In this document: positions 1,050 through 12,111 of the stretch, in pieces | Layout of the letters: every line of letters starts with the position of its first letter | Numbering within the stretch: the stretch's first letter is position 1 | IMG/VR virus record: IMGVR_UViG_2513237213_000006 | Coordinates: 1 to 64,000 of that record | Reading direction: 5' to 3' (one strand) | DNA length: 64,000 nucleotides | Source: a virus | Lineage: Duplodnaviria; Caudoviricetes | Notes under the pieces: model-generated | Databases searched by the model: none | Seen by the model: the letters and a program-made list of their open reading frames with translations, nothing else | Told to the model about the DNA's origin: nothing | Program-made: the position numbers and the translations under genes

Positions 1050-1152
1050 AACAACCACTCCTTCTAAATGTCACAACACGAAAATTGTATGTTATTCACA
1101 CTTATATTTTACTATATCGGGAGAAAAAAAGGTATAGTAACAGACAATTTAT

Positions 1153-6839: not shown

Positions 6840-7007
6840 GTAAATTCGCTCCTTTTCTTTTCACATAGATTCGACAGTTCACGGTTCGGAAAATGGTCAC
6901 TTTTCGCCTATAATTTTTCGCCTCGCTTGTTGTTTATTTGTATCATTCGTAGACACAAGACAAGGCACAATTCGGAAATTATGCCCTGTGTTTCTATCTA
7001 CGAACTT

Positions 7008-7433: not shown

Positions 7434-7553
7434 TTATCGCGTCCAACGCTCAAAAATACTTGCATAAAACAACGCTGGAACTAAGACGGCCAACGCCTTT
7501 TGGATGTTTGGATGTAAGCGGCGTTTCGGAAGAGTTTGGATAAATTTTTGCAT
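7434..7553 (-). CDS. Small peptide, 39 aa (MQKFIQTLPKRRLHPNIQKALAVLVPALFYASIFERWTR)
   Basis: Hand-translated; AGGAGG RBS; first ORF after the long leader. Confidence 0.6.
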   Translation of the reverse strand: MQKFIQTLPKRRLHPNIQKALAVLVPALFYASIFERWTR

Positions 7554-7569
7554 AAATACAACCTCCTAA

Positions 7570-8350
7570 AATGTGATTTTGTTTCGTGTGGTGTTAGCGC
7601 CACAAGTCAAGGCACATTTAACGATTTCAACTCGCTCGGCTGACTTTATCCATGAAGGAAAATGCGAACAAGAGATTTTTTTACGAATCGGAAAACGTGC
7701 CTATCATTCTGACGCGAACAAATAAGAACAATTCACCTTGAGCCTTTTTGTATTAGAATTATTGCTACGATTGGTCTACTATATACCCCATCAGGCTATA
7801 GATTTCGGTTGTTTCGTTGCTTCTTCACAACTTTGTAGGGCGTATAGAGCGCACTTCATCCGCTTACTTGCGTACACTTTTTACACGCACTCTCCCTATT
7901 TTGCAGATACCGTAACTGCGGGCTATATTGTGACAAATGAGCCACCTTGTCTTTACAAGTTCTTGACTATCAGCCTGCGTATGGCAAATGAGCCACAGGC
8001 CGGGGGTACAGGTATACCACACAAACGACTAACTATGGTCTGACAATTTTCAGAGGTTCGGCGTATGCAAGCTACTCCGCATGTTTCACAACATTCGTTG
8101 ACCGAACATTCAAGGGAATGTGCCTAACACAGTTTCGATGCCTTTTGCATGGTATGGGGTTTTTAGGGTACAAAGTTCCCGACAACATACGACACACAAC
8201 AAAAATTGTATGACAAAGATAGTTATGACTTTTGCTTTTGCCGTATGTTATGGAATTGGTATGGAAAGGGAAATAGATACACTGGTCATATTTTGGGCCG
8301 TGGTCGCTACCAACTGGTGCGCCTGACGTTCGTGCTCGTTGCCTCGCCAC
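7570..8350 (-). ncRNA. Candidate large structured RNA or long 5' leader
   Basis: No convincing ORF; directly downstream of two consensus promoters; at least 7 hairpins found by eye. Confidence 0.5.
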
Positions 8351-8356
8351 GCTTAT

Positions 8357-8385
8357 ATCATAACAAATGGCTTTTTGCTTGTCAA
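8357..8385 (-). promoter_or_regulatory. Sigma-A promoter P1 (leftward)
   Basis: TTGACA-17-TATGAT with extended TGn and an A/T UP element. Confidence 0.85.
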
Positions 8386-8499
8386 CTCTTTTTGAAAAGA
8401 ATTTTTCGTGCTTGTCGTATGTAATTGTCAAAGAACAATATCCGTTGGGATAGGGTAGCAAGCCTTTCGGCTTCGCGCCCGTCCCTCAAGGACAAATAC

Positions 8500-8528
8500 A
8501 TCATACAACGAACGCGGGATAATGTCAA
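8500..8528 (-). promoter_or_regulatory. Sigma-A promoter P2 (leftward), duplicate of P1
   Basis: TTGACA-17-TATGAT; upstream GAAAAATTCTTTT.AAAAAG.G shared with P1. Confidence 0.85.
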
Positions 8529-8848
8529 CACTTTTTTAAAAGAATTTTTCACACATACGCGGGCACGCTTATATATTTTTACTAATAGAAGGAATGTGAC
8601 CAGGTACTAAATAAAACAAAAGTGGCCTCCGGCCTTATGTAACAAGGGCTGGCGGCGTGTTTCGATAGGTAAAAAACAAAGCATGGAAAAAATCACGGCT
8701 GGGGCGCGATTCGTGCTGATACTTGACATAGGTCAACTAACTAATAATGATTAACAAAGGTCAACTAACAATCGAAACAGGACAAATAAATTACTAAAAC
8801 ATGATAAACAAATAAATAGCAATAGGAAAACACGATATACGTATACAC

Positions 8849-9905
8849 AATATAATTGCATACAATTAAACTATACACAAAATAATAGATAAAACAAAGA
8901 AAATGTATACAGATAATAATTATCAATTAGCAAGTATGGCGGGATGACGGCTTATAGTAGGGTATAAACGATAATAAATGTAATACAAGCAATAGAAAAT
9001 ACAAGATAAAATAAAAATAATAGAATAGTATGACAATTGATAGGTAGGTGGTAGAATAGAAATATTTGACACAATAGAAAATGCAAGAACAATAAGAAAA
9101 ACGATAATAGAAATCTGATAACATAATACAATTAAATTGCATACAACTGAATGTTTGCAGCTTGTCGATTTGTATAGATAAATAAAGGGAGAATGATTAT
9201 CGAGATAACAAAATATAATTGCACACAATGAAAATAAAATATAAATTTTTTTGCGCGTATTATAGCAAATTTTGTTGTAACAGAACAGGGCACAAGACAA
9301 AACAAGAAAAGGGCGTGACCACTATATAAAGACAAAATACGGCGAACGTCCTGCATAAAACCATGTAAATAGCGTATAGCCTTAGAGCCGCAAGGGTTCA
9401 TGGTGTTTCTATTGCGTAAAATACGGAGTGACGAGCAAGGCAAATCGAAAACACTTGTAATGCACGATATATAAGGGCTGAGCGGGATTTTAAGGACAGT
9501 TTAAAAAACAGTATACGACAAAACAATTATACATGTGCTTGTATAAAATTACACGACCTATATAGCATGTAATATCTATTCCGCGACCGTGTTACGTGTT
9601 GGTGTTCCATTGTTTCAAAGTAACAGGTACACGGGGCAATTTTTCACAAACCTATTGGACACAACAGAACAGGCTTCGCCCCCTTTGATTGGTTCATGCA
9701 TCTTGGCCATATTTTTATTTTTTTCAATCCAAATCGGAGAAACTGTCATTAGCTCCAACAGTGCGACCAGGGCAGCTCCATTGATGTGATTGGCCGGAGG
9801 GCAGTTTTTGATATGCCTGTTTTTGTTTATATTTTTATATTGTCAGGGAGATTTTGCGGCAAAAATTTTTCTATATCCCTATATATTCGATTGTATACAA
9901 TTAAA
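8849..9905. repeat. AT-rich non-coding region with four ATTGYAYACAAY boxes (origin/operator candidate)
   Basis: Boxes at 8855, 9136, 9218, 9890 (the last a perfect palindrome ATTGTATACAAT); GGTCAACTAAC repeated at 8731 and 8759. Confidence 0.5.
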
Positions 9906-10112
9906 TTTATTAGCTGAAAAAGCGGCGTTTCATCCAGCATCTATGCGGTGTTACAGGCTCGTCGGGAAATCTTGTTACAGCTGATACAAGTTTGTTCCGG
10001 CCCGGCGTTTGGACAGAAATATTTTGATTTGGGCGTTGGAAAGTGTCGATTTTCACTGTAGGTAAAAAGTAGAGAGAGTTTGCGTCGCGTTCATCAGGAG
10101 GGAGGTGGATGT

Positions 10113-11565: not shown

Positions 11566-12111
11566 ATGGCAGGACAGTCCAAGATTGATAAACTGGGGCT
11601 GGGAGCCAAGGTTCTCGCCCTTCGACAAGACCTCACCTGTGAAGAGATTGCCGACGAGATCAACAATCGGTATCTTCCTGCAGGTGCAGAGCCTGTCAAC
11701 AAAATGACGATTTCGAGATACTGTACTTCCCACGGTATGACTGATATGAACCGAAACGACATTTCCAAGAGCGTCACCAACTTTGATGCGCTGGGCGAAG
11801 CCTGTAAGGTTAGGGACAGACTGGTCAAGCGCACCAACAAAATGGAGCGATTCCTCGATGAAATCAAAGAGGATGAGGAAAAGTTGTCGGAGTATGCAAG
11901 TATCAATAACGCATACCTGAACTGCTTACGACAGTTGAATGACCTCAATGAGTCGGTATCGAAAATCCAAAAAGAACAGCTGGGAATGAGCAAAGTGCGT
12001 CAGGTTTTGGGAGTAGTCCTGACAACGCTGAACAAGTACCCATCTGTTCGAGCAGAGATTTTTGAGCAGCTTCGCAATTCGGAAGTATACGAAACCATCA
12101 GAGCAATTTAG
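11566..12111 (+). CDS. Probable terminase small subunit
   Basis: N-terminal HTH plus coiled coil; immediately upstream of terL. Confidence 0.65.
   Translation: MAGQSKIDKLGLGAKVLALRQDLTCEEIADEINNRYLPAGAEPVNKMTISRYCTSHGMTDMNRNDISKSVTNFDALGEACKVRDRLVKRTNKMERFLDEIKEDEEKLSEYASINNAYLNCLRQLNDLNESVSKIQKEQLGMSKVRQVLGVVLTTLNKYPSVRAEIFEQLRNSEVYETIRAI

What the first reader, a model, noticed from the sequence alone, without database searches (positions are those of the whole stretch)
7570..8350. ~780-nt hairpin-dense RNA between tandem promoters and the first early gene
Seen (minus strand): hairpins ATGTT-GTGA-AACAT (8081-8094, GNRA loop), ACATTC-CCTT-GAATGT (8106-8121), TCTGA-N6-TCAGA (8039-8054), CTTGT-AAAG-ACAAG (7946-7959) and a 7-bp stem at 7869-7889. 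Two hairpins carry the identical UCAUUU loop (7930-7945, 7982-7995) and differ by a G-C to G-U swap that pairs only on the minus strand. No credible ORF. Inference: an undescribed large ncRNA or a cis-acting antiterminator/leader controlling the early operon.
Basis: partly seen in the sequence, partly recalled or inferred. Interest (0 to 1): 0.72.

Follow-up and report, generated by a model that had tools for sequence, protein, structure and literature searches.

The report
Long untranslated leader of phage early operon
The region is a gene-free stretch of about 800 bases (940 from the first promoter) that a phage transcribes from two ribosomal-RNA-style promoters before its first early gene; two large hairpins and an rRNA-type antitermination signal look functional, but the small hairpins first noticed are not conserved.

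Summary
The window is a 72.9-kb phage or phage-plasmid contig. Positions 8350-7554 (minus strand) hold no ORF and lie between two near-consensus promoters and the first early gene (ATG at 7553).

All exist, but they are weak (-1.7 to -5 kcal/mol). They sit in the part of the leader that is not conserved in the only retrievable relative, L019. Whole-leader folding energy is within the range of other parts of the phage.
- **What is solid.**
  - The promoters copy the host's stable-RNA promoters.
  - An exact host rrn-type boxA (8437-8425) follows P1.
  - Two large hairpins fold far better than shuffles: HP1 (8255-8177, z -6.0) and HP2 (7715-7597, z -4.1). HP2 is kept in L019 through five pairing-compatible changes.
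  - A 27-nt block (8215-8189) is 96% conserved.
- **Relatives.** Phages with related late genes carry the same layout: promoter, 5' hairpin, boxA-like signal, 0.5-1 kb ORF-free structured leader. Their leader sequences are unrelated to this one. One leader type shows strong covariation.
- **Best reading.** A cis-acting early-operon leader with Nus/boxA antitermination and processing or stabilising hairpins.

There are no Rfam matches and no transcription data.

The parts
8500..8550 (-). Promoter P1: A/T-rich upstream element, -35 TTGACA (8528-8523), -10 TATGAT (8505-8500); start of transcription near 8493
   Evidence: Promoter scan gives 11 of 12 matches. The upstream element plus -35 matches 26-34 nt at 91-96% in front of tRNA genes in genomes of the host family and resembles the host rrn P1/P2 promoters.
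8458..8493 (-). 5' hairpins of the P1 transcript (GUCCUUGAGGGAC, then a GAAA-loop hairpin), like the hairpins behind host rrn P2
   Evidence: Aligned with the host rrn P2 leader. The same GTCCTTGAG start is seen in relatives L147 and L154.
8425..8437 (-). boxA-like element TGTTCTTTGACAA (with flanks, ATTGTTCTTTGACAATTACATA)
   Evidence: The only exact match to the pattern on the phage contig. The seven host rrn leaders carry ATTGTTCTTTGAAAACTAAAC 78-80 nt after the -35 of P2, against 91 nt after the -35 of P1 here. boxA-like copies sit at the equivalent place in L147, L148, L154 and eight R1-type leaders.
8357..8407 (-). Promoter P2: upstream element, -35 TTGACA (8385-8380), extended -10 TGtTATGAT (8365-8357); start near 8350
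   Evidence: It is a 93% direct repeat of the P1 upstream part (D13). The -10 and start region are identical in L019 over 16 of 16 nt.
8177..8255 (-). HP1, a long hairpin (-26.2 kcal/mol); its 3' arm holds block A
   Evidence: z -6.02, 0 of 200 shuffles fold as well. Only the apical part is kept in L019 (z -2.9).
8189..8215 (-). Block A, UGUCAUAYAAUUUUUGUUGUGUGUCGU; it can form a G-U-rich local hairpin
   Evidence: 26 of 27 nt identical in L019, and the one change turns a C-G pair into U-G. None is expected by chance. A looser second copy lies at 1092-1072.
7807..8176 (-). Variable middle part.
   Evidence: No similarity to L019, whose middle part is about 225 nt of other sequence. Small-hairpin count is twice that of shuffles on the sense strand only. 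z -1.94 sense, +0.80 antisense.
7760..7806 (-). Blocks B and C: GAAAUCYAWWGCCUGAUGGGG and GUAGCAAUA
   Evidence: Conserved and collinear with L019 5187-5228.
7597..7715 (-). HP2, a long interrupted hairpin (-40.6 kcal/mol) that ends 30 nt before the ribosome-binding site; the apical part is variable
   Evidence: z -4.14; the L019 homologue has z -4.58. The consensus helix has five one-sided changes, all of which keep pairing, and three of these give G-U pairs that are A-C mismatches in the antisense strand. Both arms recur in the hairpin at 6995-6945.
7551..7567 (-). Ribosome-binding site AGGAGG (7567-7562) and ATG (7553-7551) of the first early gene (39 aa)
   Evidence: Sequence. Conserved in L019, whose first gene is 44 aa.
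6945..6995 (-). Related hairpin after the third small gene, with the same arm and tail motifs as HP2 (GUGCCUUGWCUUGUGKC)
   Evidence: z -3.70. The L019 counterpart (z -4.06) keeps a stem of 13-14 pairs through paired changes and is followed by UUUUGCUUGUGU. Flagged as terminator-like.

Best explanation
Positions 8350-7554 form the main body of a cis-acting, untranslated 5' leader of the phage's leftward early operon. The leader is about 800 nt from P2 and about 940 nt from P1.

Shown:
- There are two near-consensus promoters that copy the host's stable-RNA promoters.
- An exact rrn-type boxA with preceding hairpins lies on P1 transcripts only.
- The leader has no ORF.
- There are two very stable long hairpins. 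HP2, just before the ribosome-binding site, is conserved with pairing-compatible changes.
- The same layout recurs in relatives with unrelated leader sequences.

Inferred:
- Host RNA polymerase starts at P1 and P2.
- On P1 transcripts, boxA recruits NusB and NusE (S10), as in rRNA operons. This makes elongation fast and resistant to the hairpin stops in the leader and between the early genes.
- HP2 and its relative at 6995-6945 are long interrupted duplexes. They act as processing or stabilising sites, most likely for RNase III. Cleavage would separate the leader from the first three small genes and set the stability or translation of their message.
- This resembles the T7 early region.

The small hairpins in the variable middle part are probably generic structure rather than a specific fold.
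For: - **Promoters.**. They match sites directly upstream of tRNA genes in the host family and resemble the host rrn P1/P2 promoters.
- **boxA.** The exact 13-mer has about 0.2 chance matches expected in the whole 3.6-Mb genome. Besides the seven rrn leaders it occurs once on C2, and here in rrn-like context and spacing. boxA-like elements occupy the same place in L147, L148, L154 and eight R1-type leaders.
- **Host factors.** The host encodes NusB and RNase III.
- **No ORF.** No reading frame is conserved.
- **Hairpins.** HP1 z -6.0, HP2 z -4.1 (L019 homologue -4.6), hairpin at 6995-6945 z -3.7 (L019 -4.1). HP2 has five compatible one-sided changes. The hairpin at 6995-6945 has paired changes in L019.
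- **Strand asymmetry.** Sense folding exceeds antisense folding in both homologues.
- **Relatives.** Their leaders are ORF-free and structured (z -2.9 to -5.6). One type has 18 covarying pairs.
Against: - There are no transcription data, so the start sites and the very existence of the RNA are inferred.
- Only one homologue of this leader type could be fetched, and with two sequences no helix has a true two-sided compensatory change.
- L019 lacks the boxA core. A degenerate remnant sits at the aligned place, so boxA is not indispensable for this leader type.
- P2 transcripts carry no boxA.
- Whole-leader folding energy is within the range of the phage background.
- The host has no Rho, which removes the commonest reason to protect an untranslated RNA.
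- HP2 and the 6995-6945 hairpin have weak U-tracts here, so it is open whether they stop transcription at all.
- RNase III cleavage is by analogy only.
Confidence: 0.55

Rival explanations
1. The leader, or a piece cut from it, is a trans-acting non-coding RNA. It might be an RNA immunity factor of the P4 CI, P1 c4 or N15 CB kind, processed from the early leader. It might instead be an anti-defence decoy. Either would explain why related phages carry unrelated leader sequences (diversifying selection).
For: - Stable-RNA-type promoters drive it.
- Leader bodies are unrelated in sequence between relatives, yet each is structured.
- One leader type (R1) is a complex fold of about 250 nt with strong covariation.
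- The contig looks like a phage-plasmid: it has a partition protein and a recombinase.
- The 17-nt direct repeat could be a pair of target sites.
- HP2 could release the leader as a separate molecule.
Against: - No sequence complementary to the 17-nt repeat or to block A exists elsewhere on the contig.
- No terminator follows that would define a discrete RNA end.
- The middle part is not conserved even with L019, which is 73-77% identical in the flanking genes.
- There is no Rfam match.
- The R1 RNA is not homologous to this leader, so its covariation cannot be transferred.
Confidence: 0.2
2. The middle of the region is functionally inert spacer or the remains of lost genes. Only the promoters and the ribosome-binding-site-proximal part matter, and the hairpins are chance.
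For: - The middle 380 nt has no counterpart in L019, whose leader is 225 nt shorter.
- Whole-leader and 250-nt-window z-scores are like background.
Against: - Excess structure is sense-strand-specific in both homologues.
- HP1 and HP2 are far beyond shuffles.
- Long ORF-free leaders are retained in every relative examined. This is unexpected in compact phage genomes if they were junk.
Confidence: 0.17
3. The region works as DNA: as operators for a repressor, as an origin, or as a packaging site. The palindromes would be protein-binding sites rather than RNA hairpins.
For: - The two TGGC-N6-GCCA-like repeats look like operator half-site pairs.
- Block A is more conserved than a hairpin would require.
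- The neighbouring AT-rich stretch 8560-10000 holds iteron-like repeats.
Against: - Substitutions in HP2, in block A and in the repeat pair keep G-U pairing on the sense strand. They weaken the DNA palindromes.
- Folding excess is absent on the plus strand.
- The iteron-like repeats lie outside the finding.
Confidence: 0.08

Closest known systems
Bacterial rrn leader with tandem P1/P2 promoters and boxA (the rRNA antitermination complex with NusA, NusB, NusE and NusG)
   Same: Tandem strong promoters 143 bp apart (host rrn: 133-142 bp). A/T-rich upstream elements. 5' hairpins. A boxA matching the host's own at 15 of 16 positions, at similar spacing. A long untranslated structured RNA follows.
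   Different: - boxA follows P1 rather than both promoters.
- The RNA behind it leads into protein-coding early genes, not rRNA.
- No boxC-like element or leader-spacer pairing partner was identified.
- The closest relative has lost the boxA core.
Phage T7 early region (tandem host-type promoters A1-A3, leader, RNase III site R0.3 before gene 0.3, RNase III sites between early genes); from established knowledge
   Same: Tandem strong host-polymerase promoters at the head of the early operon. An untranslated leader. Long interrupted hairpins in front of the first small early gene and again between early genes.
   Different: The leader is four to five times longer. It carries boxA. RNase III cleavage is untested. 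There is no sequence relationship.
Lambda nut sites and HK022 put RNA (processive antitermination signals in early phage transcripts); from established knowledge
   Same: An RNA signal just downstream of an early promoter that could make polymerase termination-resistant. Lambda nut also contains a boxA.
   Different: No N-like protein and no boxB for one were identified. The boxA here is of the full rrn type, which works without a phage protein. Nothing resembles the two-stem put fold, and there was no Rfam hit.
P4 CI RNA, P1 c4 RNA and N15 CB RNA (immunity RNAs processed from the untranslated leader of an early or antirepressor operon); from established knowledge
   Same: A phage-plasmid-like element. 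A long untranslated leader with internal repeats and hairpins at the head of the early operon. Hypervariable between relatives.
   Different: No complementary target and effector pair was found. No leader terminators were found. There is no similarity to those RNAs.
R1-type leader RNA of IMG/VR relatives
   Same: Same position and context: strong promoter, boxA-like element, ORF-free leader, and a long hairpin just before the ribosome-binding site. The late genes are related (TerL 79-81% identical at the amino-acid level).
   Different: No sequence or structure homology to the window's leader. R1 has a covariation-supported multi-helix core. This leader type has no such evidence.

Membership tests
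rrn-type boxA antitermination leader | boxA sequence matching the host's rrn boxA, on the transcribed strand | tested here: met
   TGTTCTTTGACAA at 8437-8425 (-), against the host's TGTTCTTTGAAAA in all seven rrn leaders. With flanks, 15 of 16 positions match.
rrn-type boxA antitermination leader | Located shortly downstream of a promoter and preceded by hairpin(s) | tested here: met
   91 nt after the P1 -35, against 78-80 nt after the host rrn P2 -35. Hairpins lie at 8493-8458.
rrn-type boxA antitermination leader | Host encodes the boxA-binding factor NusB (with S10) | tested here: met
   A NusB domain lies in a 143-aa frame at C1:1312634-1313044; a second match lies in a 476-aa frame.
rrn-type boxA antitermination leader | Conserved in relatives | tested here: inconclusive
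   Present in L147, L148, L154 and eight R1-type leaders. The core is missing in L019, the only relative with the same leader type.
rrn-type boxA antitermination leader | Nus-dependent read-through of downstream terminators | not testable with these tools
   Needs reporter or RNA-seq experiments.
Conserved large structured ncRNA (GOLLD, ROOL or OLE class, or a new family) | Match to a curated covariance model | tested here: not met
   No Rfam hit at the gathering score. The best E-value in the region is 0.61, at 20.8 bits against a cut-off of 88.
Conserved large structured ncRNA (GOLLD, ROOL or OLE class, or a new family) | Fold conserved with covariation across homologues | tested here: inconclusive
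   Only one homologue is available. HP2 is kept with five one-sided changes, and the middle 380 nt cannot be aligned.
Conserved large structured ncRNA (GOLLD, ROOL or OLE class, or a new family) | Folding energy well beyond shuffled and genomic background | tested here: not met
   Whole-leader z is -1.6 to -2.3, against a background range of -3.2 to +1.2. Only HP1 and HP2 stand out.
R1-type leader RNA of relatives | Match to model R1 or to the profile HMM of A6/A7 | tested here: not met
   The best cmsearch score is 3.4 bits with filters off. nhmmer finds nothing in the leader.
RNase III processing site (T7 early type) | Long duplex of about 20 bp or more, often with an internal loop | tested here: met
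   HP2 has a 10-bp and a 5-bp helix plus a lower stem and apical helices. The 6995-6945 hairpin has a stem of 13 pairs plus a lower stem.
RNase III processing site (T7 early type) | Host RNase III present, and cleavage observed | tested here: inconclusive
   The RNase III gene is present. Cleavage cannot be tested here.
P4, P1 or N15-type leader-encoded immunity RNA | Effector segment complementary to target repeats in the same leader | tested here: not met
   No complementary copy of the 17-nt repeat or of block A exists on the contig.

The most novel reading that the evidence does not exclude
A group of rumen phage-plasmid-like phages places an interchangeable, fast-evolving long structured RNA module (0.5-1 kb) behind an rrn-style promoter and boxA cassette at the head of the early operon. 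The window's leader would be one type of this module, and the covariation-supported R1 RNA another. These RNAs would act as RNAs in their own right, for example as immunity-specificity determinants or decoys against host defence, and not only as passive leaders.
Probability: 0.2. Interest if true: 0.75.

Novelty: new variant of a known kind. Interest (0 to 1): 0.45.

Why it matters
If the reading holds, a phage has copied its host's whole rRNA-operon control module: tandem stable-RNA promoters, 5' hairpins and boxA. It would use that module to drive its early genes, which are probably anti-defence and takeover genes. This would be antitermination that depends only on host factors, with no phage N- or Q-like protein, in a host that lacks Rho.

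The repeated presence of long ORF-free structured leaders of unrelated sequence in related phages is unusual for compact phage genomes. It marks a place to look for new phage RNAs. One such RNA, the R1 type found in relatives, already has strong covariation support and no Rfam family.

For this window alone the finding is modest. It is a plausible regulatory leader with two well-supported hairpins.

Tried and rejected
- **Rfam.** No family matched at the gathering score or at E up to 10 (for the relatives' leader).
- **DNA searches for the leader.** Nothing turned up in the phage records, the plasmid records, 262 genomes of the host family, 401 of its class, or the host's own genome beyond the region itself.
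- **Flanking proteins.**
  - Back-translated scans found none in IMG/VR or GTDB genomes and one in metagenomes, L019.
  - The 82-aa neighbour gave only a spurious hit.
- **Motif scans.** The L019-version 20-mer of block A has no hit in IMG/VR. A looser 17-mer scan of the genomes gave only chance hits and wasted a scan.
- **Homology to the R1 RNA of relatives.** Rejected.
- **Hidden small genes.** Rejected.
- **CRISPR-repeat mimicry in the leader.** The host I-F repeat, which starts GTGTTCCGCCGTATAGGCGG, was not seen in the leader by eye. This was not tested by a search.
- **Protection from Rho as the reason for the structure.** Dropped, because the host has no Rho.
- **Block A as a third promoter.** It has a -10-like TAYAAT but no -35, so this was not adopted.
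- **Literature.** Searches found only general boxA/Nus work and nothing on this phage.

Full report
**Setting**

The window is the first 64 kb of a 72,893-bp contig. Its GC content is 45.7%, against 50.7% for the 3.0-Mb chromosome. The contig encodes a large terminase, a portal, a large DNA polymerase, a primase-helicase, a partition protein and a tyrosine recombinase. It is therefore a phage, probably a phage-plasmid.

The host 16S looks like Selenomonadaceae. The replicon sizes match what I recall for Selenomonas ruminantium TAM6421. That identification rests on my own memory and was not tested.

Genes left of about 8350 run on the minus strand, and late genes run rightwards from about 11566. 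The finding (7570-8350) lies at the head of the leftward operon.

**Checking the observation**

Each is weak on its own, at -1.7 to -5.0 kcal/mol.
- *UCAUUU-loop pair.* The two hairpins are copies of a 17-nt direct repeat, found only at 7996-7980 and 7945-7929. They differ by the G-C to G-U change described.
- *Promoters.* Both are near-consensus. They repeat each other over their upstream parts (D13).
- *ORFs.* No ribosome-binding site with an ORF lies in the leader. The six-frame comparison with the relative shows only hits that mirror conserved nucleotide blocks in all frames.

The statistics are mixed.
- The three sub-regions give sense z-scores of -2.35, -1.94 and -1.72, against +0.67, +0.80 and -0.20 for the antisense strand.
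- The whole-leader z-score is only -1.6 to -2.3. Twelve equally long sense windows elsewhere in the phage span -3.2 to +1.2.
- Arbitrary 250-nt leader windows look like background.

**Relatives with the same leader type**

DNA searches of phage, plasmid and genome collections found no copy of the leader. The neighbouring 309-aa protein has 25 relatives in the large protein set. One metagenome contig, L019, was recovered.

L019 is syntenic and 73-77% identical in the flanking genes. It keeps the following:
- P2, with the -10 and start region identical;
- a 575-nt ORF-free leader;
- the same first gene.

Its leader folds better than shuffles on the sense strand only (z -3.56 against -0.58).

The conserved, collinear pieces are:
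- block A (8215-8189; 26 of 27 nt, and the single change keeps a pair as U-G);
- blocks B and C (7806-7760);
- the two arms of HP2;
- the ribosome-binding-site region.

In HP2 the consensus helix shows five one-sided changes, and all of them preserve pairing. Three of these create G-U pairs, which would be A-C mismatches in the antisense strand. The apex of HP2 differs in sequence but stays helical.

It has no counterpart in L019, which carries about 225 nt of other sequence there.

**The promoters and boxA**

The only hits of the region in the host's family were 26-34-nt matches to the upstream element plus -35 of P1 and P2. In most of the loci checked they lie directly upstream of tRNA genes.

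All seven host rrn operons have the following layout:
- tandem promoters 133-142 bp apart, with the same A-rich upstream elements;
- a 5' hairpin, GTCGCTTGAAGCGAC;
- a second GAAA-loop hairpin;
- boxA, ATTGTTCTTTGAAAACTAAAC, 78-80 nt after the P2 -35.

The phage has a closely similar layout:
- P1 and P2 are 143 bp apart;
- the P1 transcript starts with GTCCTTGAGGGAC and a GAAA-loop hairpin;
- ATTGTTCTTTGACAATTACATA follows, 91 nt after the -35.

The exact 13-mer pattern is expected about 0.2 times by chance in the whole genome. It is unique on the phage contig.

Because boxA lies upstream of the P2 start, only P1 transcripts carry it. L019 has a P1 homologue with a related 5' hairpin, but its boxA core is missing. 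The host has NusB and RNase III but no Rho.

**Relatives with other leaders**

The large terminase finds 19 IMG/VR loci, most of them 64-81% identical at the amino-acid level. DNA homology to the window begins only at 11566, so their early regions are different. The layout nevertheless recurs.

- *R1 type.* Eight loci have a strong promoter, an invariant boxA-like TTGTACCTTG, a 475-600-nt ORF-free leader, and a long hairpin just before the ribosome-binding site.
  - The core is a multi-helix fold of about 250 nt with 72 pairs, 95.8% of them paired.
  - 18 pairs show changes on both sides, against 10.2 +/- 1.9 in shuffles and 1-4 in slid controls.
  - It has no Rfam family.
- *L147/L148 and L154.* These start with the same GTCCTTGAG hairpin and a boxA-like element that ends in CATA, as in the window. 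They continue with 720 and 1050 nt in which no ribosome-binding site or ORF was evident by eye. That sequence is structured (z -3.5 and -5.6) and different again.
- *No homology to the window.* Neither a profile HMM nor the covariance model R1 finds anything in the window's leader or in L019. The window's leader is therefore not a member of the R1 family, and R1's covariation cannot be credited to it.

**A related hairpin downstream**

Both arms and the tail of HP2 (GUGCCUUGWCUUGUGKC) recur in a hairpin at 6995-6945, after the third small gene. Its L019 counterpart keeps a stem of 13-14 pairs through paired changes. It has a GAAA loop and is followed by UUUUGCUUGUGU.

In both elements the tail folds back on upstream bases to form a lower stem. 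The result is a long interrupted duplex. The first three small genes are thus bracketed by two related long hairpins.

**Interpretation**

The best-supported reading is a cis-acting early-operon leader.

*Shown:* host-type stable-RNA promoters, an rrn-type boxA on P1 transcripts, no coding capacity, two exceptional hairpins (one of them conserved), and a layout conserved across relatives.

*Inferred:*
- NusB/S10-dependent modification of polymerase started at P1 helps it through the hairpin stops.
- HP2 and the 6995-6945 hairpin act as RNase III-type processing or stabilising sites, much as in the T7 early region.

Rival readings are:
- a trans-acting RNA released from the leader (immunity or decoy), which would explain the hypervariability;
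- an inert middle spacer;
- DNA-level sites.

The sense-specific G-U pattern argues against DNA-level sites. The retention of long leaders in every relative argues against pure junk. No complementary target for a trans-acting immunity RNA was found.

**Verdict**

- The antitermination element exists, but it is a known kind (rrn-type boxA) and lies outside the stated coordinates.
- The hairpins cited are not the conserved ones.
- A single large conserved ncRNA is not shown for this window.

The wider pattern, and the R1 RNA in particular, deserve follow-up. Earlier scan notes on this genome were used as leads only: the upstream palindrome element, the leading-region-like early genes and the CRISPR-repeat mimic.

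Noticed in passing
L140:2305-2612 (-) and the equivalent parts of L141, L143, L144, L145, L146, L149, L156: A structured RNA of about 250-300 nt (model R1) in the early leader of IMG/VR relatives. It has 72 pairs, 18 of them with two-sided changes (0 of 500 shuffles reach this), and no Rfam family. It is not homologous to the window's leader.
   Followed up: partly
L147:3692-4413 (-), L154:2285-3333 (-): Further relatives carry 720- and 1050-nt leaders of yet other sequence in which no ORF was evident by eye. They sit behind the same GTCCTTGAG 5' hairpin and boxA-like element. Sense z-scores are -3.5 and -5.6.
   Followed up: partly
window 6945-6995 (-): A terminator-like long hairpin after the third early gene shares arm and tail motifs with HP2. 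Its stem covaries in L019, where a U-tract follows it.
   Followed up: partly
window 6906-6888, 5737-5719, 4403-4385 (-); L019 5934, 8830, 10430 (+): The palindrome CGAAAAGTGACCATTTTCG recurs 60-80 nt upstream of several early genes and is conserved in L019. It could be an operator or an RNA hairpin.
   Followed up: partly
window 1072-1092 (-): A looser second copy of block A (ACATACAATTTTCGTGTTGTG) sits about 10 nt upstream of the ribosome-binding site of a small ORF that precedes the recombinase gene.
   Followed up: no
window 8560-10000: An AT-rich stretch (36-39% GC) lies between the divergent operons. It has no Pfam-recognisable gene and holds four copies of ATTGCATACAATTAAA-like repeats (8855, 9136, 9218, 9890). 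It may be an operator, origin or packaging region. Only 8569-8676 and 9561-9870 are conserved in L019.
   Followed up: no
host genome G000 (C1): The host has no Rho factor: neither the Rho RNA-binding domain nor a TIGR00767 match above cut-off was found in a genome that is 100% complete. NusB and RNase III are present. A 35-repeat type I-F-like CRISPR array lies at C1:1013713-1015816.
   Followed up: partly
L224 (IMGVR_UViG_2595698978_000001), L162, L213, L234: Unrelated IMG/VR phages also place a boxA-like GTTCTTTGAAAATTACATA shortly after a consensus promoter. The use of host rrn-type boxA by phages may be widespread.
   Followed up: no
window 7434-7553 (-): The first early gene encodes a 39-aa hydrophobic peptide (44 aa in L019) with no family match. 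It is a possible small membrane protein directly controlled by the leader.
   Followed up: no
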